Shown here piece by piece: positions 34,918 to 51,524 of a DNA stretch of 64,000 bases. The position numbers and the translations under genes are program-made. The number at the start of each line of letters is the position of its first letter. Within the stretch, counting starts at the first letter, position 1. Below the pieces are notes generated by a model. It was not told where the DNA came from, searched no databases, and saw only the letters and a list, made by a program, of their open reading frames with translations. This DNA comes from a virus, in the IMG/VR virus record IMGVR_UViG_3300042261_001653, positions 3,826 through 67,825 of that record. The stretch is one strand, 5' to 3'.

Positions 34918-34920
34918 CTA

Positions 34921-34936
34921 TTCAATTAATTATACC
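34921..34936 (-). promoter_or_regulatory. Conserved phage promoter-like motif GGTATAATTAATTGAA (copy 1 of 7)
   Basis: Identical at 42714-42729 and 48601-48616; variants at 41782, 44369, 46611, 48331. Confidence 0.7.
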
Positions 34937-34963
34937 ACTTACGGAGCAGTATAATTACCCGGG

Positions 34964-35653: not shown

Positions 35654-35719
35654 AAATTTTTCTTGTGCGGACGTGTTAACACCTATAAATTAATTTTAAT
35701 ATATTTAACTACGAATACC

Positions 35720-35914
35720 ATGAATATCAATATCGATATCGACGAAAACGATTCTTCACTAACTATGCTTGTAGACGATCTGCATTTAATTACGGCTTAT
35801 ACCCATCGAGGAACAGTTAAGTTTAAGGGTTTAGCACCGATTATTGACGATCCATTGTACGACGTACTCACCGCGATTGCCCAACAGTTATTGTCTTTGT
35901 GTAAGAAAGATTAA
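35720..35914 (+). CDS. Hypothetical protein
   Basis: ATG 35720 in A/T-rich leader. Confidence 0.45.
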   Translation: MNINIDIDENDSSLTMLVDDLHLITAYTHRGTVKFKGLAPIIDDPLYDVLTAIAQQLLSLCKKD

Positions 35915-37173: not shown

Positions 37174-37175
37174 AC

Positions 37176-37328
37176 CTATTTCCCTCCATCTCCCCGATCT
37201 TTACCTTTAAAATACCGCTCAAGATTTTTGCGATTTATTTCGTCCTTATGCTTTTCATAATAGCGTCGAGCACGTAAGCGTTTGGTTTCTTTTACTTCTT
37301 CAATTGTTTTATAAGGTTTTCTTCCCAT
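37176..37328 (-). CDS. Small basic protein (50 aa) upstream of the endonuclease
   Basis: Hand translation MGRKPYKTIEEVKETKRLRARRYYEKHKDEINRKNLERYFKGKDRGDGGK; TTGACT-N17-TAAGCT promoter. Confidence 0.55.
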   Translation of the reverse strand: MGRKPYKTIEEVKETKRLRARRYYEKHKDEINRKNLERYFKGKDRGDGGK

Positions 37329-37414
37329 TCTTTAAGCTTATGGGTCAGCCTATAATTAGTCAACATAAAAACAGCAATTTGACAATTCTGTCTTTAGCGC
37401 TATATTTAAAGCCT

Positions 37415-37846
37415 ATGACAGAAAGACCGAGTTGGGAAGAGTATGCGTTACAATTAGCCGAAGTTGCCGCAAAAAGATCCAAGGATCCTTGGGTAAAAGT
37501 TGGTTGTTGCTTATTGCGGCACGATAACAGTGTGGCGTCATTAGGATATAACGGTATGCCTGCTGGAGTTGTGGAAGACTGGATAGATAGAGACGCACGC
37601 CGATTGACAGTGATACATAGCGAAATGAACGCCTTACGCTATGTTAGGCCGGGCGAATGCTATTTGGCTGCAATTACTATGACGCCGTGTAACGATTGCT
37701 TAAAAAACCTAGTATCTTATGGCATTAAAAATATCGTATACCGCACAGTATATAGCCGGGATACGTCATGCTTTGCTTTAGCGGATAAATTTGGCGTGCA
37801 ATTAATTCAACTACCCACTGTTACATCTTCGCCATCAATCACTTAA
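37415..37846 (+). CDS. dCMP deaminase
   Basis: RSKDP..KVG, GYNG, HSEMNAL, PCNDC; start moved to ATG 37415. Confidence 0.92.
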   Translation: MTERPSWEEYALQLAEVAAKRSKDPWVKVGCCLLRHDNSVASLGYNGMPAGVVEDWIDRDARRLTVIHSEMNALRYVRPGECYLAAITMTPCNDCLKNLVSYGIKNIVYRTVYSRDTSCFALADKFGVQLIQLPTVTSSPSIT

Positions 37847-37890
37847 GCCAGCTACTTGCAAAATCTAAAGACATGCGCTACCTTTGTAAG

Positions 37891-38313
37891 ATGCGAGTTT
37901 ATTTTAAGAAACTAAATGAATGTGCTCAAGTTCCAACTAAAAAGCCAGGCAACGCCGGTTACGACTTATTTTATGCCGGAGAAGACCGTGAACTCTATCC
38001 GACGCAACGTGCGTTACTGGATACGGCAGTCGCTATTGAACTTCCAGAATGGGCCTACGCTCGCATCGCGGATAGGTCAGGGATGGCGTTAAAGCAGGGA
38101 CTGCATGTATTGGGTGGCGTTATTGATTCTAACTATCGTGGAGCAATTGGAGTTATATTAATTAATCTTGGAGATACTAAAGTAGAGATTAAAAAAGGCG
38201 ATCGTATTGCGCAGATGATTATTGAACAAGCGCATGAAGCAAAGTTTATTGAGGTGTCTGATTTGACAAACACCGAAAGAGGAATTACAGGTTATGGTGC
38301 GTCTGGTCGGTAA
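37891..38313 (+). CDS. dut: dUTPase (trimeric)
   Basis: AGYDL, RSG, GVIDSNYRG, DRIAQ, RG..GYGASG. Confidence 0.95.
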   Translation: MRVYFKKLNECAQVPTKKPGNAGYDLFYAGEDRELYPTQRALLDTAVAIELPEWAYARIADRSGMALKQGLHVLGGVIDSNYRGAIGVILINLGDTKVEIKKGDRIAQMIIEQAHEAKFIEVSDLTNTERGITGYGASGR

Positions 38314-38334
38314 AAAATAAAAAGGAAAAACAAC

Positions 38335-41300
38335 ATGGATAAAAATAAAAATACAGAAGCAGTGTTAGGCGTAAATTTCTTGGCAGAGATGAGCAAATTT
38401 ACCTTCGCTTCCAAATATGCCCGTTACAACCCCGCAGCTGAGCGTAGGGAGACTTGGCTTGAATGTGTGGGTAGAACAGAGGCTATGCATTTGAACAAGT
38501 TTAAGAAGGTTTTAAGCAAGGAGGATCTGAAGCGGGTTGAACGTGCTTTTGATGCCGTAAGGGAAAAACATGTTGTGCCGTCTATGCGCAGTTTACAATA
38601 CGCAGGTCCAGCTATTCAAGCCAACGAACTCCGATTGTATAACTGCTCAATGCGGCATTTAGATTCAATTCGTACTTTTGCGGAGATTATGTTTTTAAGT
38701 ATGAGTGGTTGTGGCATCGGCATTGGGCTGTATAAAAAGTATATTAATCGTCTGCCTGACTTGGTTAACGCTGAGGATAAAACCGGGACTATTATTACTT
38801 ACGTGGTTGAAGATAGCTGTGAGGGTTGGTCCGATTCTTTTGAGGCACTCTTAAACTGCTATATGAAGAATACAGCATATACTGGTCGCAAGATTGTATT
38901 CGATTATAGTCGGGTTAGAAAAGCCGGCACTCCACTTAAAACTAGCGGTGGTAAAGCTCCAGGCCATAAAGGTTTAAAGAATGCCCATGTTAAGATTAAA
39001 GAGCGGCTGGATTATATTATTGAGGAGCTTAATCTCAAGCGTATGCGGTCCATTGATATTTATGATATTTTGATGCACTGCGTAGATGCTACCCTGTCAG
39101 GTGGTTCCAGAAGGTCTGCAACTATTGTGTTGTTCGATAAAGATGATACCGACATGCTGCAGGCTAAGACAAATTTTACAGTATCTAAACATACTCGGTT
39201 TGTATTGGATAAGGATATTCAACGTTGGTGTGGTCGTGTAACCATTAATAAAAAGAAATACGAAGTCGAGCTGACCGACTACGAATACAATGAAATGCTG
39301 CTCAAACATAATCAGATTTCTTGGATTCACATCGAGCCTCAGCGGGCTAGAAGCAATAACACTATTCGTTTAATTAGGGAAGAAACTACACAAGCTGAAG
39401 TAGATGCATTGGTTGAGCATACTAAAATGTATGGTGAGCCGGGTTTCTTCTTTGCCAATAAAGGAGCAGAAGACGCCCTGGTAAATCCTTGTTTACCTGG
39501 CAGTGCGACTTTAATTACTCAAACAGGTGTCACCACTATGAAGGATATTCAAGTAGGCGATAAGATATGGTCAGCGGAAGGATGGACTACGGTTATTCAA
39601 AAGTGGAACAATGGAATTAAACCAGTATTTAAATATAACACTACAGCAGGTACAGTAGTCGCAACGGAAAACCATAAGTTTGTGTCTAAGGGTGAAAAAG
39701 TAGAAATTAAAGATTGTGACAGCTTAGATTTATTAACCAACACAGTTACTGCACCTGTTGTTTGGGATCCTCAAGATGTAATGGATGGCTTGGTTTTTGG
39801 TGACGGTTGTAGAAACGCGAAACAACCATACTTAATTATTGGTAAAAACGACCAAGACTATTTCAATAGCGAAATAACCCATTTAATTAAAAATGGTAAA
39901 AATCTAAATTACACTGTTGCGACAACCGTCACAAACGAAGAGCTTCCACATACATACGATCGCGTAATACCTGATCGCTTTATTTGTGCTTCGCTGTCTA
40001 AGATTGCGGGTTTTCTGCGAGGCCTATTTTCAGCTAACGGTAGCGCACACAGTAAGCGCATTTCTTTTAAAACATCATCCAATAAGTTAAAAGAACAAGT
40101 AATTCTCATGCTATCTTGCTTAGGTATTAAATGCTATAGCACTACAAATAAACCTATTTGGGTAACTTTCAGCAATGGGCGTTATCTATGTAAACAATCT
40201 TACGATATTAACATTTACGACCGAAAAGGTTTTTCAGCGCGTATAGGCTTTCTGCAACGCTATAAAAATGAAATTCTAACTGAAGCAATTGCATTTGCGG
40301 AAACAAGTAAGAAAGCCATTCGCAATAAAACAACTTACGATATATTTGAAACTACCGCATTAGGCGAACAGGAAGTATTTGATATTGCCGTAGATAACCA
40401 ATCACATACTTATTGGTCTGATGGATTTAATGTTTCCAATTGCGCTGAGATCGTAACCATTCCTGTAACCAAGGATGGCGTATGTGGCGTACAGAACTGC
40501 AATCTTACAGAAATAAATGGCAAGGCCTTAACCAATCAGGAAGACTTAATTAAAGCTGCTGAAAATGCCGCGATCATTGGTACCCTTCAAGCGGCCTATA
40601 CCAAGTTTAAATATCTAGGTAATGCTTCTCGTGAGATTACAGAGGAAGAAGCGTTGCTAGGTATCAGTATTACCGGTTTATTGGATAATCCTAAAATCTG
40701 CCTTAACGAGGAATATCTTACTACGGCTGCTCAATGGGCTTGTGCCACTAACGAGTTGTGGGCTAAAAAATTAGGTATTAATCCAGCTGCACGTCTTACC
40801 TGTGTAAAGCCTAGTGGTACAGTGGGTATTGTATTACAGACATCTTCTGGTATTCATCCTCATCACGCTAATAAGTATTTTCGTCGTATTCAGTGCAATA
40901 AGCACGATCCGGTATTCCAATACTTTAAGAAGCATAATCCTCATATGGTAGAGGAAAGCGTATGGTCAGCTAATAAGACCGATGAAGTGGTTACCTTTCC
41001 TATCTACGTGAATGGTGAAACTATTGTCAAAAAGGATCTTACTGCTCTGCAGCATATGGAGATAATTAAGAAAGTGTATAATGCTTGGGTAAAACCTGGG
41101 ACTAGTAAATATAACAAGAAGCCTATTACCCATAATATCTCTTGTACTGTATTGGTTAAGGATGAAGAATGGGCTGACGTAAGTAAATACATGTACGCCA
41201 ATAGAGATGCATTTACGGCTATCTCGTTCTTACCTGCTCTAGGCGATAAGCTCTATAAACAGGCTCCACTTGAGAGCATTGTTACTGAAGAAGACGAAGC

Positions 41301-41421
41301 CAAATATCAGGCTTTAATTGCTGGGTATAAACCAGTCGATTATAAGAAGCTGAAAGAGCTGGAAGATACTACGACAGCCATGGATACGATAGCTTGCAGC
41401 GGTGGGGCTTGTACCATTTAA
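38335..41421 (+). CDS. nrdJ: Class II (B12-dependent) ribonucleotide reductase with intein
   Basis: PSMRSLQ, YNC, GEPGF, NP|CAEI, CNLTEIN, TCVKPSGT, C-terminal ACSGGAC. Confidence 0.92.
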   Translation: MDKNKNTEAVLGVNFLAEMSKFTFASKYARYNPAAERRETWLECVGRTEAMHLNKFKKVLSKEDLKRVERAFDAVREKHVVPSMRSLQYAGPAIQANELRLYNCSMRHLDSIRTFAEIMFLSMSGCGIGIGLYKKYINRLPDLVNAEDKTGTIITYVVEDSCEGWSDSFEALLNCYMKNTAYTGRKIVFDYSRVRKAGTPLKTSGGKAPGHKGLKNAHVKIKERLDYIIEELNLKRMRSIDIYDILMHCVDATLSGGSRRSATIVLFDKDDTDMLQAKTNFTVSKHTRFVLDKDIQRWCGRVTINKKKYEVELTDYEYNEMLLKHNQISWIHIEPQRARSNNTIRLIREETTQAEVDALVEHTKMYGEPGFFFANKGAEDALVNPCLPGSATLITQTGVTTMKDIQVGDKIWSAEGWTTVIQKWNNGIKPVFKYNTTAGTVVATENHKFVSKGEKVEIKDCDSLDLLTNTVTAPVVWDPQDVMDGLVFGDGCRNAKQPYLIIGKNDQDYFNSEITHLIKNGKNLNYTVATTVTNEELPHTYDRVIPDRFICASLSKIAGFLRGLFSANGSAHSKRISFKTSSNKLKEQVILMLSCLGIKCYSTTNKPIWVTFSNGRYLCKQSYDINIYDRKGFSARIGFLQRYKNEILTEAIAFAETSKKAIRNKTTYDIFETTALGEQEVFDIAVDNQSHTYWSDGFNVSNCAEIVTIPVTKDGVCGVQNCNLTEINGKALTNQEDLIKAAENAAIIGTLQAAYTKFKYLGNASREITEEEALLGISITGLLDNPKICLNEEYLTTAAQWACATNELWAKKLGINPAARLTCVKPSGTVGIVLQTSSGIHPHHANKYFRRIQCNKHDPVFQYFKKHNPHMVEESVWSANKTDEVVTFPIYVNGETIVKKDLTALQHMEIIKKVYNAWVKPGTSKYNKKPITHNISCTVLVKDEEWADVSKYMYANRDAFTAISFLPALGDKLYKQAPLESIVTEEDEAKYQALIAGYKPVDYKKLKELEDTTTAMDTIACSGGACTI
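39490..40440 (+). mobile_element. LAGLIDADG-containing intein (317 aa) in nrdJ
   Basis: Starts CLPGSATLI, block B ATENHKF, DGLVFGDG and FLRGLFSANG, ends VFDIAV...FNVSN followed by C. Confidence 0.92.
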
Positions 41422-41468
41422 TAGCTAAAAAAAGAAATTTGTATAGCGCCTCTTTTGGGCGCTTGGGA

Positions 41469-41780
41469 TTATAGTGCGAAGCCTTCGCACCATAATCCCC
41501 CATGTTCTTTTTTAACCACCCTCGCGGGTGATACTAGGTCGCCCCGGGGAGCGACCTTCCGAACTTCTTCCGACACCACGAAGATGGTGTCGGCCTCCAT
41601 CTCCGGCAGGTCAATGACCTCCGGAGCCAATTCAAACAGTCCGATGCCATTTACGGCACCAGACCGTTTTGACCACGGCTTAACCCAGGCCACTTGGCCT
41701 GACTGGGTTAAGACGTATTCGAACTTGCCATCCTCCCCCACAATCCAGAGATCGTGGGGAGTGCAATTAATAATTTTCAT
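41469..41780 (-). CDS. Hypothetical protein, MKIIN(C/L)TPH-type N-terminus
   Basis: IINCTPH, LPE...IFVVS...RGDLVSP; ATG directly after promoter variant GGTATGACTATTTG. Confidence 0.65.
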   Translation of the reverse strand: MKIINCTPHDLWIVGEDGKFEYVLTQSGQVAWVKPWSKRSGAVNGIGLFELAPEVIDLPEMEADTIFVVSEEVRKVAPRGDLVSPARVVKKEHGGLWCEGFAL

Positions 41781-41860
41781 ACAAATAGTCATACCCTTTT
41801 TTAACCGTAAACACAGGAGGGGGGTATAGGCTAAAAAAAGGGCACAAGGCCCTTTTGTAA

Positions 41861-42664
41861 TTACGCTTGCGCGGCCATAACCAACCCTTCCAGCTCAGCT
41901 ATGCGAGACCTGTCTGTCTCTGTTCTATAAGGCTTCCAGTGCAGCTCTCTTAATTCTGCACTGACTCCCAACCCATCGGCTGCGGACCAGAAGGCTTCAT
42001 CAGCCTTGTGTGAGTCTTTAAGCGCCTCATCCCTATCGGTTGTATACAATATTTTCTTCGCCGCAAGCATGGCGGAGTCATCCGCTACCAAGTCCGGCGT
42101 GTCATCGCCGCAGCCGCTTACAGAATCAACCAACTTCCCGTCCTTTATCAGGACAAAGGCAGCCGCCCGCTGGTCTCCCAATTCATATACTATAGAATGG
42201 CAACCATCCTTTAGGTCTGCCCAATAAATAATTTTGTTCCCATTGATGTAGGCCCACCGGTGTTCTTCTGCCGTTACAAAGCACACTGGTTTAGCACAGT
42301 TATGCGCTAGTCTTTTTGTAAAGTATCCCGGCCTGAAATCCGGTACTAGCTTTTCCTGATACCCTTCGAGCCACGCTTGACGAGTTAACCAGCCCTCTGA
42401 TATTTTAGGAGTCTCCGTGTAAGCATTGCACGGAGGCCAATGATACGTATCGGCTTCCCAACCGTGCCGGGTCATAAACTCTTTCGGCACTGTATATGCG
42501 CCGACAAATCCGTTATGCCCGCTGTCCTTCTTCACAGCGTCCAACGCCTTGAAGAATTCTACCGGGGCGGCGGCGGTTGTGCTAGTACGCCGAAACCACG
42601 TTTCAGCACTGCCGATGCCACTGAACCGATAAGTCCCAACTACTACCTGATTATTTTTGTTCAT
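41861..42664 (-). CDS. Hypothetical protein
   Basis: 267-aa ORF, followed by hairpin + T7-AGCC. Confidence 0.65.
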   Translation of the reverse strand: MNKNNQVVVGTYRFSGIGSAETWFRRTSTTAAAPVEFFKALDAVKKDSGHNGFVGAYTVPKEFMTRHGWEADTYHWPPCNAYTETPKISEGWLTRQAWLEGYQEKLVPDFRPGYFTKRLAHNCAKPVCFVTAEEHRWAYINGNKIIYWADLKDGCHSIVYELGDQRAAAFVLIKDGKLVDSVSGCGDDTPDLVADDSAMLAAKKILYTTDRDEALKDSHKADEAFWSAADGLGVSAELRELHWKPYRTETDRSRIAELEGLVMAAQA

Positions 42665-42754
42665 AGCTAAAAAAAAATAAACCGTTAGCGTCTTAATTAA
42701 CGACTAACGATCGTTCAATTAATTATACCTTTTATTAACCCCTAAAAATAAGCA

Positions 42755-42779
42755 GGCCTAGGAAGGTTAATCCTAGGCC
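42755..42779. terminator. GGCCTAG-family hairpin
   Basis: GGCCTAGGA-AGGTTAA-TCCTAGGCC downstream of LRR gene. Confidence 0.65.
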
Positions 42780-42801
42780 CACAATAAAATTACCGTGTAA
42801 A

Positions 42802-43677
42802 TTACTTACACCAGCCAGACAGTGTTCGGCGATTAATTACGGCGCCGCCAACGGTAATATGGGGTAGGCTTTCACAACCAGTAAATGCGTCGTCATCAAA
42901 AGCGGTTACAGTATTAGGAACTATGTATGCTCCGTTTTTGCCAGTAGGATACTGTAGCAGTTTAGTTTGTGCTTTATTGAATAACACGCCATCTAAACTG
43001 CTGTAAGCGGTATTAGCTGCGTCTACGGTAATTGCGGTTAAATTAGGACAACGCTCAAACGCACCATCTAAGATACTGCTTACACCAGCTGGAATATTTA
43101 CAGTAGTTAATGTTTCACACCCGGCAAAGGCAGATTGTCCAATGGTGGTTACGCTGTCAGGAATAGTAATAGCCGTTAATACTTTACATTCGCTAAATGC
43201 TTCCCGTCTAATAGCGGTTAAGCCTTGGTTAAGTGTAACGGTAGTCAACGCCGTACAATTGCCAAAAGCTTTTTCTTTAACTGCCCGTATACCACTGCCT
43301 AAGGTAGCTGTAGTTAGAGCATAGCAGCCGTAGAAGGCCAGTTGGCCTAAAGTATTAACACTGGCTGGAATGGTAATGGATAATAAATTAAAACAATCCC
43401 AGAAGCAGTAATCACCTAACGCAACCAAAGCAGCAGGTAATGTAACCGTCTGCAGTAAAGAGCAACCAGCAAATGCACGGTCTCCAATGTGCGTTAACGT
43501 AGCTGGGAATGAAACGCTACGAATAAATGGACAGCCATAAAATGCAGTTACACCGATTTTAGTTACGGGTTTTCCTTCAAGCGTATCCGGGATGACCAAA
43601 TCAGTGCCTGGAATTTTGTCGTTGTATTTATCAATCGTTACTTCGTTTTTAATTATCGTATAATCGTAGGTAGCCAT
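42802..43677 (-). CDS. BspA-type leucine-rich repeat (LRR_5) protein
   Basis: Repeats of L..I.IP.SV..IG..AF.GC; DGVLFNK...LLQYP. Confidence 0.92.
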   Translation of the reverse strand: MATYDYTIIKNEVTIDKYNDKIPGTDLVIPDTLEGKPVTKIGVTAFYGCPFIRSVSFPATLTHIGDRAFAGCSLLQTVTLPAALVALGDYCFWDCFNLLSITIPASVNTLGQLAFYGCYALTTATLGSGIRAVKEKAFGNCTALTTVTLNQGLTAIRREAFSECKVLTAITIPDSVTTIGQSAFAGCETLTTVNIPAGVSSILDGAFERCPNLTAITVDAANTAYSSLDGVLFNKAQTKLLQYPTGKNGAYIVPNTVTAFDDDAFTGCESLPHITVGGAVINRRTLSGWCK

Positions 43678-43754
43678 ATAACGTTAGTATACTGCTTGAG
43701 GTTAAAAAAAGAAAGAGGGCATTTTAAGTGCCCTCAATGCTTAGTTTATTTATA

Positions 43755-44018
43755 TTACTTAGCGGGAGGCATTGGACCACGGGGACCTTTACCTTGAGGA
43801 CCCATTCCTCTTGGACCTTTTCCATCCCTAGGGCCTTTACCAAATTTAGGACCGTTAGGACGCATCTGGGGATTACAACATAGGCACTTACAGATTACTT
43901 GTATCTGTACTACTTGCGCCTTTGGTTCTTTACGTGGAGCAGGAGCATCTGTCGCTTGGGCTAGCGCAGCACATCCAAAGAAAGCGATGGTTGCGATTAA
44001 TACTTTTAGTTTATTCAT
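43755..44018 (-). CDS. Small secreted protein with CxCxCC and GPR repeats
   Basis: Signal peptide, AGAAAGG upstream, KGPR repeats. Confidence 0.65.
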   Translation of the reverse strand: MNKLKVLIATIAFFGCAALAQATDAPAPRKEPKAQVVQIQVICKCLCCNPQMRPNGPKFGKGPRDGKGPRGMGPQGKGPRGPMPPAK

Positions 44019-44075
44019 AGTTTGACCTTTCTGATTTCACTTTAACATAAAGAACCTGAAGAATAGCTTAAGGCT

Positions 44076-44370
44076 AAAAAAAAGTTTTCACTTTTTCCCA
44101 AGAGCAGACAATTCAGTCTGTTTGTTATTGGGTTCCCACACCCAACCTCACCATAGTTTTGCTATGGTTAGCGTAGCTCAGGACTTAGCCCTGAATTTTA
44201 TACTACGCGGCACGCCCGTATATAGGCTTATTGAACCCTATTTCAATAAGTCTACCTATAAAGTATACTGGCTCAGTCAATATACTTTACCTTAGCCTGT
44301 GTGCATCAGGCCAGCGGTCATAGATCTTAGTCCCCTCGCCCCAGTATTGCACCTGGAGCGACGATCTATT
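44076..44370 (-). ncRNA. Unassigned ~295-nt multi-hairpin structured RNA
   Basis: Promoter motif at 44369-44384, about 8 consecutive stems, GAAA-tetraloop hairpin and T8-AGCC at the end, no credible ORF. Confidence 0.65.
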
Positions 44371-44518
44371 CAAATAGTTATACCTCAATATATTGTAATA
44401 ACCAAGGGGGGTAGATGCAAGCTATCCACCTTTAAGCCGTTCAGCCCTCAGTTCCAACTTTGCCAATTTTTTAATAATGCTATCGTTAGTTATAGGTTTA
44501 TTTTTTTTTAGTTAGCCA

Positions 44519-45604
44519 TTATTCCATACCGGGCATCCAACGAGTGTCGGTGCCGTTTTTATATACATCTACAAACTCCGCTTTTTCATCTTTCATAAAC
44601 TCAAGTAATTCTGATTTACGAGATAAACCATGAATCACTAGCCGACCGTTAAGTTTACGAACACGCCAACCCCAAGAATAGGCGTATGCCGAATAGTTTA
44701 CCAACACCAACTGCCTTGTAACCCCTTTTCCATCGTCGTCGTCGACGTCCATTCGATATACGGTATTATCACTGATAGTTTTATACTCCGGCACTATCAT
44801 TTCTCTTATCCGTTCCGTAAACGTAATGGCAGTGCGAGAACATTGCGATTGATTCTCAATTAACGTCAACTCCGCCTCGTTGAATTCCGTGAAACAATTA
44901 GCGAAATAAAACTTGGATTCAGGACAATGACGTAACAACCAGTATAACGCAATATTCCCTTCGTTATCCTTTTCCAAAAATACTTGCTTGGTCAATCTTC
45001 CCTGTTTCTCCCATGTTGCCCAATCTAAGCTAGCCCAATCCCGTTTACGCGCCTTATCACATATGATTGCGGCCAACAATGATTGATCGTCTGCGCGACT
45101 TATCACTTCTTCAAAAGATGCACCCGGTGTCTCTCCGCTTTTCAAGGCCAAGCCGTATAATTTCTGTAATACTGAACTTTTTGCTAACTCCTTCTTTAAT
45201 GTTTTAATTTCAGTATTAATTATTTGCAACTTACCTCGAAGCTTCTGCTGTTCCTCTTCTCGAAACAGCAGCAAATCTCGTTTGGCGATGAGGTTTTTTG
45301 TGGTCTGCTCTGTTATATCTTGAACAACCTTGGCGGTCTCAGTTGGCTTAGGATCGACTTGAGTAACAACAGTTTCAGACTTAGTTTCCGGCTTAATAAC
45401 CGGTTTAATCTTAACCTCCACTGCTTTGTTAGTCTTCGTGAGCTTATTAGTAATTTGCACCGCCTCTTCGACGGTGAGCTTGATTGGCGAATTAAACATC
45501 AATACCGTAGTTTTGTTTTTATGGATGGTGTTCATTTTTTTTGTGTTTTCGTTTGCAGCCGTTGACAAACGAGGAATAGTTGCTAAATTGTCTCGATATG
45601 ACAA
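44519..45604 (-). CDS. Hypothetical protein with coiled coil (true start probably 45535)
   Basis: Long ORF; ATG 45535 follows an A-run and avoids overlap with the tmk promoter. Confidence 0.6.
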   Translation of the reverse strand: MSYRDNLATIPRLSTAANENTKKMNTIHKNKTTVLMFNSPIKLTVEEAVQITNKLTKTNKAVEVKIKPVIKPETKSETVVTQVDPKPTETAKVVQDITEQTTKNLIAKRDLLLFREEEQQKLRGKLQIINTEIKTLKKELAKSSVLQKLYGLALKSGETPGASFEEVISRADDQSLLAAIICDKARKRDWASLDWATWEKQGRLTKQVFLEKDNEGNIALYWLLRHCPESKFYFANCFTEFNEAELTLIENQSQCSRTAITFTERIREMIVPEYKTISDNTVYRMDVDDDDGKGVTRQLVLVNYSAYAYSWGWRVRKLNGRLVIHGLSRKSELLEFMKDEKAEFVDVYKNGTDTRWMPGME

Positions 45605-46212
45605 ATATGCTTATTTCTTTTGAAGGCAACGATGGCAGCGGCAAATCAACCGCAGCCAACCACCTCCACGACTGGTTAACTAAAGAAGGATATGAATCAG
45701 TGCTCTTTCGCGAGCCTGGCTCTACCCTGTTAGGCGAGGAACTTCGCTCTCTCTTAGTAAAGGAGACCATGGGTCTGTGTGAGGAAGCGGAGTTGTTTTT
45801 ATTTCAAGCGGCTAGAATACAGCTGATTAAAGAAAGAATTAAACCAGCTTTAGCCGCAGGAAAGATTGTAATACTCGATCGATTCTACGATTCAACTTGG
45901 GTCTATCAAGGCTACTGCCGAGGACTCGTATTAGTTGACGTAGAATTCTGTAATCGCTTAGCATCCGCGTATATTGAACCAGTGGCAACCTTCTTTTTAG
46001 ATACTCCACCTGCCCGTTGTTTGGAACGAATTAAACAACGCGGTAAAGCACCTAAAGATGAGTTGGATATTAACTGGTTAACCAAGATACACGCAGGCTA
46101 CCAAGAACTTGTGAAGCTTCATCCCAAAAGAATTAAGGTTATTAACGGAGAACAACCATTCAGTGCCGTAGACGCACAGATTCAATTGGAAGTGAAGAAG
46201 CTGATTAGCTAA
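45598..46212 (+). CDS. tmk: Thymidylate kinase
   Basis: ISFEGNDGSGKST, REPG, LFQAAR, DRFYDS..YQG. Confidence 0.95.
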   Translation: MTNMLISFEGNDGSGKSTAANHLHDWLTKEGYESVLFREPGSTLLGEELRSLLVKETMGLCEEAELFLFQAARIQLIKERIKPALAAGKIVILDRFYDSTWVYQGYCRGLVLVDVEFCNRLASAYIEPVATFFLDTPPARCLERIKQRGKAPKDELDINWLTKIHAGYQELVKLHPKRIKVINGEQPFSAVDAQIQLEVKKLIS

Positions 46213-46248
46213 AAAGAGAATCTAGTGATTCTCTGTGTAGCTGGAGGT

Positions 46249-46509
46249 CTAAGCCTCCAACAGGCAACACCTTACCTGTTTAAGGTGTTGGCGCCAAAGT
46301 ACCTCGAAGGGCTTGGCGATGATAGCCGGGGTTTTAATGCCCCGGCTTTTTATTTCAGGTAATTGCTCCGGCTTTAACCGGACTACAATTACCTTCGTAC
46401 TTTTCTTGGCTCCGTAGTCATTACGGAAGCCAGAAAAAATTAATGAAGGCCGAGGAACCTCGTGGGTTTTCACGAAGTCCTCGACCTCCACCTCTCCGGG
46501 GAGGCACAT
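46249..46509 (-). CDS. Hypothetical protein
   Basis: Follows small TM ORF; ends before hairpin + T5-AGCT. Confidence 0.5.
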   Translation of the reverse strand: MCLPGEVEVEDFVKTHEVPRPSLIFSGFRNDYGAKKSTKVIVVRLKPEQLPEIKSRGIKTPAIIAKPFEVLWRQHLKQVRCCLLEA

Positions 46510-46510
46510 A

Positions 46511-46609
46511 TTAAAAGGCCGCCAAAAGCAGCCAAATGATGCACACCCCGCCGAGGGTTAACCCCATACCAATGAGGTCAACCACCGTAGTAGATAAGCT
46601 ATTTTTCAT
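46511..46609 (-). CDS. 32-aa single-TM protein (leaderless)
   Basis: MKNSLSTTVVDLIGMGLTLGGVCIIWLLLAAF just after GGTATAATAATACGC. Confidence 0.5.
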   Translation of the reverse strand: MKNSLSTTVVDLIGMGLTLGGVCIIWLLLAAF

Positions 46610-46734
46610 GGCGTATTATTATACCAACCAATACGCTTCAATATTCGCCCGGGCCTTAATCCATATCGAATGGCTTACTCCTTAGGCTAATCAATAGCAT
46701 TAACAAAAATACTATTGCCACCACCAGCTTGGGA

Positions 46735-47400
46735 TCAACTGACATTTGCGGGTCCTTTAACTACATCTAGTCCAACCCCAATTGAGGCTGTACCACCCGC
46801 AGCAGCTACAGATGCGGCAGCTGCACGAGCAACCACATCGAGTAGATTGTTGAGCTGTAAGAAAAGGTACTTACATGCCTCCTCTTTACCCATGCCAGGA
46901 TTAGCTTCCTGTATGATAGAAACCAACTTAGGCATATCTTCAATTGGAACATTTTTGCACGCTTGTTCCAACTCATCCGCCAACCCCAACTTCACTGTTT
47001 CTTCAAACACTTCAGACCTTTCTTCACAATGGTTGATTATGTCCATGATCGGACTTTTTACGCTGCGCAATTCCTTGATCAATTTGGTCAAGGCACAGCC
47101 AATGCCCACATACCTACAGAATGCATCGTTGCGACTACAATTTGCTGTAGCTGCCGCAACGAAGTTATCTTTTGGATCGAACAACTCTAATGTTGTACTG
47201 CCACCTTTGCACAGCAGATTTGACAAATCTACATCTGCTGTTTCATATTTGGCCCTGAGTACGTACTGTACTTGGCCGTTTACCAGTTTCGCATAACATC
47301 TCCTATGAGTTATGCGAATATTGTACCCTTCGAGTTTCAACGCCTCGAACCGAGGTTGAACGTAATCTAACACTGATTTCTTTTTCTCTTGGGCATCCAT
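46735..47400 (-). CDS. Hypothetical protein; N-terminal domain resembles small phage A.C...D.F...G...AL family
   Basis: KGGSTT....ATANCSRNDAFCRYVGIGCAL. Confidence 0.6.
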   Translation of the reverse strand: MDAQEKKKSVLDYVQPRFEALKLEGYNIRITHRRCYAKLVNGQVQYVLRAKYETADVDLSNLLCKGGSTTLELFDPKDNFVAAATANCSRNDAFCRYVGIGCALTKLIKELRSVKSPIMDIINHCEERSEVFEETVKLGLADELEQACKNVPIEDMPKLVSIIQEANPGMGKEEACKYLFLQLNNLLDVVARAAAASVAAAGGTASIGVGLDVVKGPANVS

Positions 47401-47501
47401 TTTTTTTTAACTATGTTTGACATGTGAGTCCAACGTGAAATTGGGTGTCAGCACAATTCCACTTTTGCGCCATTGGACTGGAATAACCGCGACCCCAGCA
47501 A

Positions 47502-47535
47502 AAATAAAAAAGGAGACCTTACTCAAGGGTCTCCC
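47502..47535 (-). terminator. Intrinsic terminator after tmRNA
   Basis: GGGAGACCCTTGAGTAAGGTCTCC-TTTTTTATTTT. Confidence 0.8.
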
Positions 47536-47556
47536 AAAACAACTACACTAACAAAT

Positions 47557-47976
47557 TGGTGGATGCGACCGGGGGTTGCACCCGGTGTCCATACGACTTA
47601 ATCTGCCTTCACTACAATCTTAGTTTATTTTTATCTCGGAAAATCTAGTTAATAAACAAACTGTGTATTTTCCTAGTTGCTTAAGTTTCGGTTAGCCAAT
47701 CACAACACTTAGCACCTACATCTGTTAAAATGACGGAGATAAAAAATAACAGGTACTTTATTATCTACGGGCAGTAACTCAAGCTACTGCGACTTGGGAG
47801 TTTGTTACTTCCTGAGGAAAGAACACGCCGTCTACCTCATGCATCGCAACAAAACTAACCTTCTCTGGATTATAAGAGTTGGCATTTGATTTTCGATCAC
47901 CTTTTAACGAGGCCAAGTGATCAACCTCGGATTGCGAAGTACAAATGCTCATCGTGTGTCGAATCTACACGCACCC
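47557..47976 (-). ncRNA. ssrA: tmRNA (420 nt)
   Basis: 5' GGGTGCG...ATTCGAC; acceptor stem with G3:U; 3' GGAC-ACCGGG-TGCAACC-CCCGGT-CGCATCC-ACCA; resume GCC at 47883, tag ANSYNPEKVSFVAMHEVDGVFFPQEVTNSQVAVA*. Confidence 0.92.
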
Positions 47977-48000
47977 ATAAAAAAGAGTTTAATTAAAGTC

Positions 48001-48147
48001 TCAGAAAAAAGCAACAGCGGCGATTAAAGCTAAAAAAAGAATCGCGATAGCTATTAACGTGTTTCCACCTGTATGGTGATGCTTAGGCTGTATAGTATAA
48101 ATTGGTTGAAAAGCTAACGTGTTAACCCAGAAGTATTTAGACTTCAT
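48001..48147 (-). CDS. 48-aa protein with C-terminal TM helix
   Basis: MKSKYFWVNTLAFQPIYTIQPKHHHTGGNTLIAIAILFLALIAAVAFF; ATGA overlap with upstream stop. Confidence 0.5.
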   Translation of the reverse strand: MKSKYFWVNTLAFQPIYTIQPKHHHTGGNTLIAIAILFLALIAAVAFF

Positions 48148-48266
48148 TTAACCCTCTTGGTTTGGGTTACAGCTAGCTTTGAATCTGTGTAAACAATATA
48201 ACCTATTAGCGTTATATTAATCGCCAATAGGACAATCAGCCATTTTTCGAATTTTGTGAATTTCAT
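48144..48266 (-). CDS. 40-aa single-TM protein
   Basis: MKFTKFEKWLIVLLAINITLIGYIVYTDSKLAVTQTKRVK. Confidence 0.5.
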   Translation of the reverse strand: MKFTKFEKWLIVLLAINITLIGYIVYTDSKLAVTQTKRVK

Positions 48267-48406
48267 TGGTTAAAAAAAAGCTTCGAAATCCTTGGTTTAT
48301 TTTTGAGGTTTACCAAGGGTTAATCTTCTCTCAGTTAATTATACCAATTTCCATAGGTTAAAAAAAGAGGGGAGTATAACAGCTCCCCTGCCTTTAGACC
48401 TCCTTT

Positions 48407-48562
48407 CTAGTTTAAGTATTCCCACTTCCCGTTGGAATACCTATAATAATCCTGGGCGCCGGTTAACCCAGGTTTTTTTACGATATCCCCATTTCTGGGG
48501 CCGGTACTAGTGGGATTACAACCGCATAATCCCACCAAGAAAAACATGATCAACCACCTCAT
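48407..48562 (-). CDS. 51-aa lipoprotein
   Basis: MRWLIMFFLVGLCGC lipobox; bounded by promoter motif 48601-48616 and GGGGAG..CTCCCC-T7-AACC terminator. Confidence 0.55.
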   Translation of the reverse strand: MRWLIMFFLVGLCGCNPTSTGPRNGDIVKKPGLTGAQDYYRYSNGKWEYLN

Positions 48563-48641
48563 TGTGTTCTTTCTACTGCCGAGCTACGAGCCAAGCGGGT
48601 TTCAATTAATTATACCTCTATCTGACTGACAAAAATAAATA

Positions 48642-48667
48642 GGGCCTAGAACGTTAATCCTAGGCCC
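48642..48667. terminator. GGCCTAG-family hairpin
   Basis: GGGCCTAG-AACGTTAATC-CTAGGCCC downstream of Hsp20. Confidence 0.65.
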
Positions 48668-48694
48668 ATCGTAGTTAATAGCTAAAAATAAAGA

Positions 48695-49069
48695 TTATCC
48701 TGAAATAGGGATTTTCCTTATCTGATTGATTTCTTCCTTGGACTTCTTAAACGTAATCGTAAGTACGCCATTTTCCAATTTACAGGTAGCCGTATTTTCA
48801 TCTACCTCGGTTTCAAGCGTTACTGACTTGTTTATCTTACGTGTTTTGCTTTCACCCTTTACCGTAACCGTATTACTGTCCTTATCAAAACTAATCTCGA
48901 TTTGCTCTTTGGTTAAGCCTGGAACATCGAAATTAATTTCCAGATCAGTTTCACGGTATTCGGTGTTAATACCTAGATCCCAGCTTTTGAACGTCGGAAC
49001 GCAAGAAAACAAGCGATCCATGAAGGTGCCGAGATCTTGGTTACGTTGATTGTATTTAACTAATTGCAT
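48695..49069 (-). CDS. Small heat-shock protein (Hsp20)
   Basis: DVPGLTKEQIEI, A..ENGVLTI, C-terminal IPI; TTGACA-N16-TATAAT promoter and AGAAAGGA SD. Confidence 0.9.
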   Translation of the reverse strand: MQLVKYNQRNQDLGTFMDRLFSCVPTFKSWDLGINTEYRETDLEINFDVPGLTKEQIEISFDKDSNTVTVKGESKTRKINKSVTLETEVDENTATCKLENGVLTITFKKSKEEINQIRKIPISG

Positions 49070-49144
49070 CGTTTATTTCCTTTCTATTGTTAAGGGTTCA
49101 AAAAAAATTATAGCAAATTTTAAAAGTGTGTCAATATGTCGCAC

Positions 49145-49405
49145 TTAATATCTGCAACATCCTGCACCGCAATCACAAAGCGCTGGTGGAGGTGTCAGCC
49201 ACTTAACATTTTCTCCCAGTGGCACTCCACTCCGCCTAAACTCCTGGCGTTCGTTAAATCCGTCTTCGTAGCCTTGGCTGTAAGCTTCATTAATCCTGGC
49301 CGCCAATAAATCGAATAATTGCTTATTGCGATCAAGCACTTCTTCTTTTTTAGGCCGTAGCTCTTCCAGCATTTTCTTTAGTTTTTCGATATCGATGTCA
49401 TTCAT
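49145..49405 (-). CDS. Hypothetical protein
   Basis: AYSQGYEDGF, Cys-rich tail; ATG 49405. Confidence 0.5.
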   Translation of the reverse strand: MNDIDIEKLKKMLEELRPKKEEVLDRNKQLFDLLAARINEAYSQGYEDGFNERQEFRRSGVPLGENVKWLTPPPALCDCGAGCCRY

Positions 49406-49409
49406 AGTT

Positions 49410-49598
49410 TTACTTTCCGTTTTCGATACTCTCAAAAGAAATGTCCGGTGGCAAGTCTTTCGATTGAGTAAATTTTACATCGACGATCTGCACTCCTTCA
49501 GCAGCGTCTCCTTCAGTCACCAAACATGGACCAGTAAAAAATCCAGTTTTACCGTTACTCAGCGTTACGTATATTGATTGATAGCGTTTCGTATCCAT
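49410..49598 (-). CDS. Hypothetical protein (leaderless)
   Basis: TTGACA-N16-TATGTT-N6-ATG. Confidence 0.6.
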   Translation of the reverse strand: MDTKRYQSIYVTLSNGKTGFFTGPCLVTEGDAAEGVQIVDVKFTQSKDLPPDISFESIENGK

Positions 49599-49707
49599 GA
49601 AGACAACATACCCGCTAACTTTGCTTTGTCAATGCTGTGCCGTATTTTTTGGAGATTTGTTATTTTGCTGGACTCAAGCGGTACAAAAGCGTAAAACGTA
49701 TTTTGCA

Positions 49708-50904
49708 ATGATCAAAAGCGCAAAAGTAACACTGAAATATTCCAACGCAAATAAATTGGAAAATATCGCGTTATTTGTTGCGGAATACCGTAGAGTATTT
49801 TCTTTTTTTGTGGATGCCTTGTGGCAGGCGACAGATATTCCTGCATTATTGCCTAAAGAATGGACAAGTCGAGTAACTGACAGCTGGCTATCTGCGGCAG
49901 CGATACAATGCGCAGGAAAACAGGCAAGTGGCGTTGTCCGAGGATGTAAGAAAAAACAAGCCAAACGTTTGTGGCAAATAAATAAATTTAAAGCCGAAGG
50001 ACAATTTAAAAAAGCGCGTAAGCTGCAATGTATTTACGCTTCAATTAAACTTTCCAAACCTAGCGTGGTCGTAGTTAATCCTGACTTAGACTCTCGCTTT
50101 ATTATAATTAACACTACCGCCACAAATTCTTTTGATGGCTGGGTTACCTTAAAAGGATTAGGAAATAAACTAAAGATAACTGTTCCATTTAAAAAACATA
50201 AGCATTTCAACAAAATGCTTGCGGCTGGCACTTTAAAAAAAGGACTTAGACTTTCAACAACTGCGTTGATACTGATGTTCGATTTGCCGGACCCAATACA
50301 AAGGACAGACGGAAAACGAATCGGAATAGATATAGGTCAAATAGCCGCCTTAACTTGTTCAGATGGCCAGGCTGTTGAAGCTGATAAACATGGGCACACT
50401 TACCAATCCATTTGCAATAAATTGGCTCGTAAGAAAAGAGGAAGTAAAAATTTTAAACAGACCGAAAGACATAGATCAAATTATCTACGCTGGGCCGTCA
50501 ACCAGTTAGACCTTCAAGGTGTAAAAGAAGTTAACTTGGAGAACATCAAGCAGTTACGAAAAGGTAAACGAACCAATCGCTTGATGTCTCATTGGAATTA
50601 CGCCGAACTTTTTGATGTGTTGGAATCAAAACTTAGTGATGCTGGTGTCCAGATAAACAAAGTTTCTTCCACATATACAAGTCAAAGATGTTCGGTATGT
50701 GGTTGGGTTCGGAAAGGAAACCGTAAAGGAAAGTTGTTCAAATGTGATAAATGCTCGTTTGAGTGTGATGCGGATTTGAACGGTTCCTTGAACATTTCTT
50801 TTGATCTTCCTCCGATAACAAAGGAAGAGCGATTGCGGCAAGCCAATAGGAAAGGCTTCTATTGGAATGCTGCAAGTGAGGCACTTACAGTTCCTCATGC
50901 CTAA
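49708..50904 (+). CDS. tnpB: TnpB-family RNA-guided RuvC nuclease, no adjacent transposase
   Basis: RuvC-I GIDIG, RuvC-II NLEN, YTSQRCSVCG..FKCDKC zinc finger, RuvC-III DADLNGSLNI. Confidence 0.9.
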   Translation: MIKSAKVTLKYSNANKLENIALFVAEYRRVFSFFVDALWQATDIPALLPKEWTSRVTDSWLSAAAIQCAGKQASGVVRGCKKKQAKRLWQINKFKAEGQFKKARKLQCIYASIKLSKPSVVVVNPDLDSRFIIINTTATNSFDGWVTLKGLGNKLKITVPFKKHKHFNKMLAAGTLKKGLRLSTTALILMFDLPDPIQRTDGKRIGIDIGQIAALTCSDGQAVEADKHGHTYQSICNKLARKKRGSKNFKQTERHRSNYLRWAVNQLDLQGVKEVNLENIKQLRKGKRTNRLMSHWNYAELFDVLESKLSDAGVQINKVSSTYTSQRCSVCGWVRKGNRKGKLFKCDKCSFECDADLNGSLNISFDLPPITKEERLRQANRKGFYWNAASEALTVPHA

Positions 50905-51095
50905 AAAAAGCAACGATCAGCCTGTGTGCGTTAAATGCGGACCACGAGGCTTCGTTCTGACTGTGGCGGGTTTCAAAATACCCACACTGACGAGCAACTG
51001 TAAACTTCCAGTCAATTTTAATTTGTCAAACTTGCTTCTAATTAAGCCACATGCTAAGATAAAAACAGAACAAATCACAGAAAGAAAAATAAAAT

Positions 51096-51524
51096 ATGGC
51101 GGGTTTTAAAATGAACGCTTTAATCACCCAGTTGTTTACTCACTGGTCTGGTTCTACACAGCTTCCCAAGGCTTCCGGCGGCACTACCGCACTCTACGTT
51201 GGCTTGATGACCGTGGCTACAGATACGGCTGCCACAATTACGGCCTCGTCAGTTGGTAACGTTTCAGAAGCTACCTATTCAGGGTATGCCCGTATTCAGG
51301 GCGCTTGGACAGCTAATGGAACCACCAATCTACGTAATAATGCTGAAATTTCCTTTACGGCTGTCGCCGGCTCAACCGTATATGTCTGCGGTATTGGCCT
51401 GTATGACGCAGCCACTAACGGCAATCTTCTATACTACGGACCACTAACCGGTGGCAATAAAACTATTCTCGTTGGTGATACTCCTAAGATTTCCGTTAAC
51501 GCCCTTACCTTGGCCGAGACCTAA
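51096..51524 (+). CDS. Phage minor tail/tail-fibre-associated protein
   Basis: LYVGL.T, EA..SGYAR, N...ISF, GLYDAATNGNLL.YG.L..KTI..GD. Confidence 0.7.
   Translation: MAGFKMNALITQLFTHWSGSTQLPKASGGTTALYVGLMTVATDTAATITASSVGNVSEATYSGYARIQGAWTANGTTNLRNNAEISFTAVAGSTVYVCGIGLYDAATNGNLLYYGPLTGGNKTILVGDTPKISVNALTLAET

What the first reader, a model, noticed from the sequence alone, without database searches (positions are those of the whole stretch)
44076..44384. Stand-alone ~295-nt highly structured non-coding RNA with its own promoter and terminator
Seen on the minus strand: GGTATAACTATTTGA, then ATAGATC/GATCTAT enclosing TCGCTCCAG-GTGCAATA-CTGGGGCGA; GCCTG/CAGGC; TAAAGTATATTG/CAGTATACTTTA; CTTATTGAA/TTCAATAAG; GCGTAG/CTACGC enclosing TTCAGGGC/GTCCTGAG; ACCATAG/CTATGGT; GTTGGGT/ACCCAAT; CAGAC/GTCTG; AAAAAGT-GAAA-ACTTTTTTTT-AGCC. 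Most G-U pairs and the GNRA loop favour the minus strand. No credible ORF. I do not recognise tRNA, RNase P, SRP or 6S hallmarks. The first loop shares TGCAA with the tmRNA T-loop. Inference: an undescribed phage ncRNA (decoy/sponge or RNAP cofactor).
Basis: partly seen in the sequence, partly recalled or inferred. Interest (0 to 1): 0.75.

Follow-up and report, generated by a model that had tools for sequence, protein, structure and literature searches.

The report
Orphan hairpin-rich non-coding phage transcription unit
A roughly 295-base stretch of an uncultivated freshwater jumbo phage has no gene in it, folds into nine neat hairpins and sits between the phage's own recurring start and stop signals, so it is probably a non-coding RNA, but it has no known relatives and its job is unknown.

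Summary
The minus strand folds at -117 kcal/mol, z -5.75, against a mean z of -0.45 (sd 1.18) for 20 mid-gene control windows.

The promoter is one of 6 copies of GGTATRAYTAWYTG, all on the minus strand (0.00 expected). The 3' end is one of 9 copies of TTTTTTAGCY (1.27 expected). No frame is coding-like. Rfam finds nothing here.

Three caveats:
- The terminator stem is the weakest of its family, and the two downstream genes have no recognisable promoter, so the RNA may also, or only, be their 5' leader.
- Three neighbouring cassettes of similar size fold even better (z -9.5 to -12) yet encode proteins, so structure alone does not mark an ncRNA in this phage.
- No homologue was found anywhere, so covariation could not be tested. 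No RNA data exist.

Verdict: a plausible orphan phage non-coding RNA or leader, moderately supported, of modest interest.

The parts
44371..44384 (-). Promoter motif GGTATAACTATTTG, containing a -10-like TATAAC. The inferred transcription start is about 44370-44369.
   Evidence: One of 6 exact matches to GGTATRAYTAWYTG, all on the minus strand and all intergenic, at 34936, 41795, 42729, 44384, 48345 and 48616. The shuffle expectation is 0.00. The generic sigma-70 scan did not flag it. The start site is inferred from the usual -10-to-start spacing and is not measured.
44076..44370 (-). Predicted non-coding RNA body, about 295 nt.
   Evidence: MFE -117.3 kcal/mol, z -5.75. No ORF and no coding-like frame. 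No Rfam match. It lies in one of the longest non-coding gaps of the window, 44019-44518, 500 nt.
44320..44369 (-). Domain 1: a 7-bp outer stem (AUAGAUC/GAUCUAU) enclosing a 9-bp hairpin (44336-44361, loop GUGCAAUA) and a 9-nt single strand GGGGACUAA.
   Evidence: The inner hairpin has dG -15.8 and 1 G-U pair.
44289..44318 (-). Hairpin 2: 3-bp plus 7-bp stem, 7-nt loop AUGCACA.
   Evidence: dG -12.2, 1 G-U.
44260..44288 (-). Hairpin 3: 11-bp stem, loop ACUGAGC.
   Evidence: dG -8.9, 1 G-U.
44222..44255 (-). Hairpin 4: 9-bp stem CUUAUUGAA/UUCAAUAAG extended by 4 outer pairs, loop AUAGGG.
   Evidence: dG -10.4.
44171..44208 (-). Hairpin 5, two tiers: GCGUAGU/GCUACGC outside, a 7-nt bulge, then UCAGGGC-UAA-GUCCUGA inside (44178-44194).
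44150..44168 (-). Hairpin 6: ACCAUAG-CAAAA-CUAUGGU.
   Evidence: dG -7.0.
44127..44146 (-). Hairpin 7: GUUGGGU-GUGGGA-ACCCAAU.
   Evidence: dG -8.8. This is the only loop that contains GGA.
44105..44120 (-). Hairpin 8: CAGAC-UGAAUU-GUCUG.
   Evidence: dG -5.5.
44072..44101 (-). Terminator-like element: a weak stem of A-U and G-U pairs with one G-C, a GAAA loop, a run of 8 U, then AGCC.
   Evidence: A member of the 'hairpin + TTTTTTAGCY' family: 9 matches against 1.27 expected, all on the minus strand. It is the weakest stem of the family. The generic terminator scan did not flag it.
43755..44018 (-). orf87, a small protein with an N-terminal signal-like segment and a Gly/Pro/Lys-rich tail. It starts 55 nt after the terminator and has no recognisable promoter, so it is a likely read-through target.
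   Evidence: (codon score 0.26).

Best explanation
This is a genuine non-coding transcription cassette of the phage.

How it is made (inferred):
- A conserved -10-type promoter, one of six copies and probably read early by the host polymerase, starts transcription at about 44370.
- The transcript folds co-transcriptionally into nine independent hairpins.
- Part of it ends at a weak U-tract terminator at about 44076, giving a stable RNA of about 295 nt.
- The rest reads through and carries the hairpin array as the 5' leader of the orf87 and BspA-LRR messages.

What is selected: the hairpins themselves. They are intact although nothing of a reading frame is left.

Most likely mode of action (inference only): a stable, nuclease-resistant multi-hairpin RNA that works by being bound, either by a host or phage RNA-binding protein or by a nuclease, and not by base-pairing to a target.

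Shown: the anatomy, the motif families, the lack of coding capacity, and folding beyond shuffles and gene controls.
Inferred: transcription, the two ends, read-through and function.
For: - All pairings are present, with z -5.75 and 0 of 100 shuffles as stable. Control genes average z -0.45, minimum -2.81, over 20 windows.
- The promoter motif occurs 6 times, all minus strand and all intergenic, against 0.00 expected.
- The terminator motif occurs 9 times, all minus strand, against 1.27 expected. Three copies end convergent units and so act as true 3' ends.
- The other five promoter copies each head a small cassette, 245-358 nt where measured. This unit therefore has the layout of a gene.
- Stops number 7, 10 and 13 in the three minus frames. 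No frame has a coding-like codon score.
- The stems carry only G-U wobbles, 10 in all, and no mismatches in the nine hairpins.
- The 500-nt gap is among the longest non-coding gaps in a window that is 90% coding.
- In the sister cassette U4, 11 of 51 predicted pairs show compensatory changes in a relative. RNA structure is therefore under selection in this class of units.
Against: - There is no homologue, so no covariation for this RNA itself.
- There is no transcript evidence of any kind.
- The generic promoter and terminator scans flag neither end, and both motif patterns were derived post hoc from this same window.
- The terminator stem is very weak.
- The plus strand folds with an equal z-score.
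- Cassettes U1, U2 and U4 are more structured and are coding, so strong folding is not specific to non-coding function here.
- The closest large relative, G005, lacks the whole island, so the element is dispensable for the lineage.
Confidence: 0.4

Rival explanations
1. It is only a cis-acting 5' leader. The hairpin array is the long structured 5' UTR of the orf87/BspA-LRR message. Its last hairpin plus U-tract acts as a leaky or regulated attenuator, and there is no trans-acting RNA.
For: - orf87 begins 55 nt after the U-tract, and no sigma-70-like site or GGTATAAT motif lies between them, or before BspA.
- The terminator stem is the weakest in its family.
- Other copies of the same promoter are followed by a hairpin plus U-run before the ORF. 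At 42729 it is -13.8 kcal/mol with 9 U, 2 nt before the ATG. The copies at 34936 and 48345 are similar. Promoter-proximal attenuation therefore seems to be a theme in this phage.
Against: - The other leaders are about 45-60 nt with one hairpin, not 295 nt with nine.
- BspA also follows a strong terminator (-12.2 kcal/mol) without a recognised promoter. Unrecognised promoter classes probably exist, and the phage encodes its own RNA polymerase subunits. 'No promoter' is therefore a weak argument.
- No alternative antiterminator pairing was noticed by eye; this was not computed.
Confidence: 0.3
2. It is a functionless remnant: an emptied or decayed cassette, or spacer DNA, that keeps a promoter, a terminator and hairpins by inertia.
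For: - The unit sits in a variable accessory island that is absent from relative G005.
- It has no homologues anywhere.
- Its neighbour orf361 is an orphan, matching only itself among 2,166 candidates scored, out of a library of about 5.8 billion proteins.
- The sister cassettes are coding.
Against: Decay long enough to scatter 7-13 stops through every frame should also have broken stems. Yet nine hairpins remain without a mismatch, and the fold is far beyond shuffles.
Confidence: 0.15
3. It is a DNA-level element, such as an origin, a packaging or recombination site, or single-strand hairpins, and not an RNA.
For: Both strands fold with similar z-scores, and most stems are palindromes at the DNA level.
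Against: - Ten stem positions are G-U on the minus strand, which makes them A-C mismatches on the other strand.
- There are no repeats or iterons, and no copies of the hairpins elsewhere in the window.
- The element is framed by oriented transcription signals.
Confidence: 0.05
4. It is protein-coding on the plus strand. Frame 1 is open for about 155 codons apart from one TAG, so it could be a gene with a read-through or recoded TAG.
For: Plus frame 1 has only 4 stops. Shuffles reach so few in 4.3% of cases and reach the longest open run in 7.5%. TAG ends only 2 of 41 long ORFs.
Against: - Codon scores are -0.19 and 0.06 for the two halves, against 0.30 for true frames.
- Neither half has a Pfam or PHROG hit at E up to 1.
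- The 57-aa half had no candidate in the library of about 5.8 billion proteins, not even a called copy of itself.
- There is no ATG start with a ribosome-binding site.
- The window is already 90% coding under code 11.
Confidence: 0.03

Closest known systems
Short promoter-proximal terminated transcripts of lambdoid phages (lambda PR'-tR' '6S' transcript, with Q antitermination). Recalled from general knowledge, not from a call.
   Same: A promoter is followed within a few hundred bases by an intrinsic terminator, with promoter-less genes beyond it. A short structured RNA is made unless the terminator is read through.
   Different: No antiterminator gene or qut/put-like site was identified. This unit has nine hairpins and lies in an accessory island, not ahead of the late operon. 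There is no sequence relation.
Non-coding RNAs reported in jumbo phages (phiKZ; PA5oct with four ncRNAs).
   Same: They are phage-encoded non-coding transcripts of unknown function in large phages. For PA5oct I saw only the abstract start in the search listing (PMC7318152). For phiKZ I saw one passage of the review PMC13282480.
   Different: Those were found by RNA-seq in cultured systems. There is no sequence or Rfam link to this element, and this one has no expression data.
T4 stable RNAs C and D (species 1 and 2) of the tRNA gene cluster. Recalled.
   Same: They are small stable structured phage RNAs without a known function, encoded near other RNA genes. Here a tmRNA gene lies 3.2 kb away.
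   Different: The T4 RNAs are processed out of a tRNA precursor. This window has no tRNA gene, and this unit has its own promoter and terminator.
CsrB/RsmZ-type protein sponges (Rfam clan CL00106).
   Same: They have a multi-hairpin architecture and end at an intrinsic terminator.
   Different: The defining repeated GGA in loops is missing: 1 of 9 loops has it. There is no Rfam hit at the locus. The only weak PrrB_RsmZ hit in the window (26.2 bits against a gathering score of 44) lies at 34638-34754, in another cassette.
RNA anti-CRISPRs (solitary CRISPR-repeat mimics). Recalled.
   Same: They are small phage-encoded hairpin RNAs that act as decoys.
   Different: Two of the nine hairpins were searched as exact 20-mers in 185,579 species genomes. 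One gave no match. The other gave a single hit inside what read by eye like coding sequence of an archaeal MAG contig. No repeat array was found.

Membership tests
Any Rfam 15 family (tRNA, tmRNA, RNase P, SRP, 6S, T-box, Y RNA, pRNA, riboswitches and others) | A covariance-model match at or near the family's gathering score. | tested here: not met
   The gathering scan of the whole window returns only tmRNA at 47557-47976. The E<=10 scan of 43500-45000 returns two chance hits outside the element. The E<=5 scan of 34000-51500 returns nothing at the locus. ARAGORN finds 0 genes.
Independent bacterial/phage sRNA gene | Its own promoter. | tested here: met
   The element has an exact member of a 6-copy, strand-specific, intergenic motif that contains TATAAY, against 0.00 expected. 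The generic scan did not flag it. Promoter activity was not tested.
Independent bacterial/phage sRNA gene | An efficient intrinsic terminator that defines a discrete 3' end. | tested here: inconclusive
   It shares the family tail of U8 plus AGCC. However, its stem is the weakest of the family, made of A-U and G-U pairs apart from one G-C, and it is not flagged.
Independent bacterial/phage sRNA gene | No translated ORF. | tested here: met
Independent bacterial/phage sRNA gene | A discrete transcript is observed. | not testable with these tools
   Only DNA runs hold the region. The RNA runs of the same study hold next to none of its words.
Conserved structured RNA family | Homologues with compensatory base-pair changes. 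| tested here: inconclusive
   No homologue was found, so there was nothing to count. The tools may hide near-identical records. The one close relative found, L019 with Tmk 83% identical, is a 1,056-nt contig that does not reach this locus.
CsrB/RsmZ sponge | Many GGA motifs in hairpin loops. | tested here: not met
   One of 9 loops contains GGA.
6S RNA | A long helix with a large central bubble that mimics an open promoter. | tested here: not met
   The MFE and centroid structures are strings of short independent hairpins, and there is no RF00013 hit.
RNA anti-CRISPR / solitary repeat unit | A hairpin near-identical to a host CRISPR repeat. | tested here: inconclusive
   Only 2 of 9 hairpins were tested, by exact 20-mers. 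They gave 0 hits and 1 chance hit. The host is unknown.

The most novel reading that the evidence does not exclude
The element is the purely non-coding member of a lineage-specific class of hyper-structured early cassettes, U1-U4. Each is about 290-360 nt. U1-U3 have the conserved promoter and all four have the terminator tail. About two-thirds of bases are paired, in 7-10 hairpins. In this reading the RNA structure is the selected payload and the coding content is secondary: U4 keeps its hairpins by compensatory change in a relative. The array could serve, for example, as a decoy for a host RNA-sensing defence or nuclease.
Probability: 0.12. Interest if true: 0.65.

Novelty: new member of a known kind. 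Interest (0 to 1): 0.33.

Why it matters
If it is transcribed and functional, it adds one more orphan structured RNA to the small list known from jumbo phages, this time in an uncultivated freshwater lineage that also carries its own tmRNA.

The wider point is that several small accessory cassettes of this phage, coding ones included, are folded far beyond chance, and one keeps its hairpins through compensatory change. That hints at RNA-level selection on phage early transcripts, for stability, processing or evasion of host RNA-targeting systems. Metatranscriptomes or a cultured relative could test this.

As it stands there is no homologue, no expression data and no host, so the practical value is as a flagged candidate.

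Tried and rejected
Homologue searches, all negative for this element:
- blastn of 901 nt against 50,697 phage records.
- Exact patterns in viral contigs. The promoter-plus-start pattern gave one hit, in a giant-virus MAG contig, with no model match.
- Anchoring on neighbouring proteins:
  - orf361 gave no loci and only itself among 2,166 candidates scored.
  - RNR gave 4 loci.
  - An RNA polymerase subunit gave 4 loci.
  - Tmk gave 9 metagenome loci and none in viral contigs.
- nhmmer on 4 loci.
- BLAST on 5 relative records gave only a 15-nt match at E 0.109.
- The single-sequence covariance model R1 hit 0 of 8 relative records and 0 of 12 loci, and found only the element itself in the window.
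- There are no paralogues in the window beyond the promoter and terminator motifs.
- The tools state that records of the same or a very near genome may be left out.

Expression:
- No RNA holder is listed for the region.
- Laid contigs of two DNA runs are identical to the window, with no variants. The RNA run touched only a 35-nt conserved part of the tmRNA gene.

Other ideas tested without result:
- Pairing with the phage tmRNA: the duplex energy was no better than shuffles, and 83% of shuffles were as good.
- Antisense pairing to the start regions of 52 genes: best -44.6 against -44.2 (sd 3.7) for shuffles. The method is crude.
- CRISPR-repeat mimicry.
- Host identification from the tmRNA 3' end: 0 hits in species genomes (after a busy-machine failure).
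- Stop-codon recoding: no frame has a single stop type.
- Plus-strand ORFs.
- A tmRNA in relatives: none over the cut-off in 8 distinct relative records.
- RNA-linked partner genes such as Ro60, reverse transcriptase or Cas. The Pfam summary of 36 further ORFs, which lists only the 25 most-matched families, showed mainly nucleotide-metabolism, helicase and RNase H families.

Tools and literature:
- Literature searches (listings only) turned up no description of such an element.

Full report
**Context.** The window is 64,000 of the 67,825 bases of an IMG/VR virus record that CheckV rates 33% complete, which points to a genome of roughly 200 kb.
- It encodes split multisubunit RNA-polymerase beta-like proteins.
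- It carries a nucleotide-metabolism module: an intein-bearing ribonucleotide reductase, ThyX, dUTPase, dCMP deaminase and Tmk.
- It has a TnpB-like transposase and a full-length tmRNA gene at 47557-47976 on the minus strand (111.7 bits), but no tRNA.
- The DNA is held by lake and freshwater metagenome runs from two studies, which may be its source.

**The observation.**
- Folding recovers a 7-bp outer stem around a 9-bp hairpin, seven further hairpins, and a terminal A/U-rich hairpin with a GAAA loop, eight U and AGCC.
- About 67% of bases are paired.
- The 321-nt stretch has MFE -117.3 kcal/mol and z -5.75, with 0 of 100 dinucleotide shuffles as stable.
- Twenty 300-nt windows from the middle of long genes gave mean z -0.45, sd 1.18, minimum -2.81.
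- The plus strand has an equal z-score of -6.28. Imposing the minus structure on it costs about 20 kcal/mol, and the minus stems hold 10 G-U pairs.
- Folding therefore favours the minus strand only modestly. The oriented signals decide the strand.

**Transcription signals.**
All six are on the minus strand between 34.9 and 48.6 kb and all are intergenic, against 0.00 expected in shuffles.
- The 3' end is one of nine matches to TTTTTTAGCY, all on the minus strand, against 1.27 expected.
- Seven of the related TTTTTAGC sites follow a hairpin. Three of them (34643, 41431, 46215) end units that converge on plus-strand genes, so the family does act as terminators.
- Both patterns were derived from this window after looking at it, which inflates their significance.
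- The generic sigma-70 and terminator scan reported neither end of the element.
- The terminator stem here is the weakest of the family.

**Not coding.**
- The three minus frames hold 7, 10 and 13 stops. The longest minus ORF is 33 aa with a TTG start upstream of the inferred transcription start.
- Codon-usage scores are 0.04-0.06 on minus and about -0.08 on plus. True frames score 0.30 (sd 0.09) and wrong frames -0.14 (sd 0.10).
- Plus frame 1 is unusually open, with 4 stops. Shuffles reach this in 4.3% of cases.
- Its two ORFs score -0.19 and 0.06, have no Pfam or PHROG hit, and the 57-aa one has no candidate in the large protein library.

**Not a known RNA.** Rfam at gathering scores finds only the tmRNA. 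Permissive scans find nothing at the locus.

**No relatives.** Every route failed: phage GenBank records, IMG/VR patterns, protein-anchored loci, a single-sequence covariance model over eight relative records and twelve loci, and patterns in species genomes.
- The closest large relative, G005 (RNA polymerase 51% identical), is syntenic around RNR and Tmk. There it packs ORFs tightly and lacks the whole 41.4-45.6 kb island that holds this element.
- A closer relative exists (L019, Tmk 83% identical), but its contig is only 1,056 nt and stops short of the locus.

**What the neighbours teach.** A sliding-window scan showed that this element is not the best-folding stretch in the window. Other promoter-to-terminator units of similar size on the same strand fold even better:

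| Unit | Coordinates | z-score |
|---|---|---|
| U1 | 34925-34630 | -9.5 |
| U2 | 41785-41420 | -10.5 |
| U4 | 46520-46205 | -12.0 |

- All three are coding. U2's 107-aa ORF hits phrog_21731 at 1.5e-11.
- U4's 86-aa ORF is conserved as protein in L019 (43% identity, blastp 2e-22, no stops). U1 carries a 61-aa ORF picked by its codon score; I translated it by eye, and a helix-turn-helix reading of it is only my impression, tested by no call.
- In U4, 11 of 51 predicted pairs nevertheless changed on both sides and stayed paired between the two phages.
- Larger genes of the same island fold normally: BspA z 0.26, orf361 z 0.66, orf267 z -0.49.

This cuts two ways. Strong folding does not by itself mark an ncRNA in this phage. 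But RNA structure is evidently selected in this class of small cassettes, and the element under study is the one cassette with intact stems and no trace of a reading frame. That combination argues against simple decay.

**Stand-alone or leader?**
- orf87 starts 55 nt after the U-tract. Neither it nor the following BspA-type LRR gene has a recognisable promoter.
- Three other copies of the promoter are followed by a hairpin plus U-run before their ORF. The one at 42729 is a strong terminator-like hairpin 2 nt before the ATG.
- Read-through, perhaps regulated, is therefore likely, and the hairpin array would then also be a 5' leader.
- On the other side, the promoter and terminator directly flank the element just as they flank the coding cassettes, and the other leaders are only 45-60 nt.
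- BspA follows a strong terminator without a visible promoter, so some promoter classes, for instance those of the phage's own polymerase, are probably going unseen.

**Function.** Nothing tested points to a mechanism.
- There is no GGA-loop pattern (1 of 9 loops), and no 6S-like bubble.
- Pairing with the tmRNA is no better than chance, as is pairing with 52 translation-start regions.
- Two hairpins tested gave no CRISPR-repeat match.
- The Pfam summary of 36 further ORFs listed no RNA-partner gene such as Ro60 or a reverse transcriptase among its top families.
- My preferred reading, a stable protein-bound multi-hairpin RNA that doubles as a leader, is inference.

**Literature.** Three full-text searches (listings only) and one passage of a jumbo-phage review (PMC13282480) show that jumbo phages are known to express ncRNAs of unknown role. 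I found no description of an element like this one. Supplementary files were not consulted.

**Verdict.**
- The interpretation as a stand-alone novel phage ncRNA is partly supported.
- The proposed functions are untested.
- The element is an orphan candidate of a known kind, and of modest interest.
- The more intriguing lead is the family of hyper-structured small cassettes around it.

Noticed in passing
window 46205-46520 (-), 41420-41785 (-), 34630-34925 (-): Three small promoter-to-terminator cassettes fold far beyond chance (z -12.0, -10.5 and -9.5) although they encode proteins of 86, 107 and 61 aa. In the 86-aa unit, 11 of 51 predicted pairs changed on both sides and stayed paired in a relative (L019), while the protein frame is also conserved.
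   Followed up: partly
window 47557-47976 (-): There is a full-length phage-encoded tmRNA (111.7 bits) with an unusual T-loop, GGGUGCAACCCC. Read by eye, the tag frame is long, about 35 codons. ARAGORN missed it. None of 8 distinct relative records has a tmRNA over the cut-off.
   Followed up: partly
window 34936, 41795, 42729, 44384, 48345, 48616 (-): Six copies of the promoter-like motif GGTATRAYTAWYTG lie on one strand. Those at 34936, 42729 and 48345 are followed by a hairpin plus U-run before the ORF, which suggests promoter-proximal attenuation or antitermination control.
   Followed up: partly
window 42750-42790 and 48640-48680 (-): A near-identical block of about 75 nt, made of a terminator hairpin (GGGCCTAGGATTAAC...CTAGGCC) and then the promoter motif, occurs twice. 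It looks like a reused terminator-promoter junction between cassettes.
   Followed up: no
window 49597-50904 (+) and 50500-50900 (+): A TnpB-like transposase ORF (phrog_506, 2.3e-25) has a strongly folding 3' end on its own strand, where a guide (omega) RNA would be expected.
   Followed up: no
window 46511-46606 (-): A short, very hydrophobic ORF of about 32 aa, seen by eye, lies immediately upstream of the hyper-structured 86-aa unit. It could be a small membrane peptide, toxin-like or holin-like.
   Followed up: no
window 38335-41421 (+): The ribonucleotide reductase is interrupted by a LAGLIDADG domain (intein-like). An HNH endonuclease gene lies nearby at 35911-37173.
   Followed up: no
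L013 about 18150-18500 (G005:C1:38150-38500, minus strand): Relative phage G005 has its own unannotated, strongly folding stretch of about 250 nt with no ORF, after a small membrane-protein ORF. It includes a multi-branch domain closed by a 12-bp stem. It has no Rfam match and no match to model R1.
   Followed up: partly
window 45540-45580 (+): Tmk is preceded by a canonical TTGACA-17-TAAATT promoter that is conserved in relative L019. The host polymerase therefore reads standard -35/-10 promoters, unlike the -35-less motif family of the cassettes.
   Followed up: no
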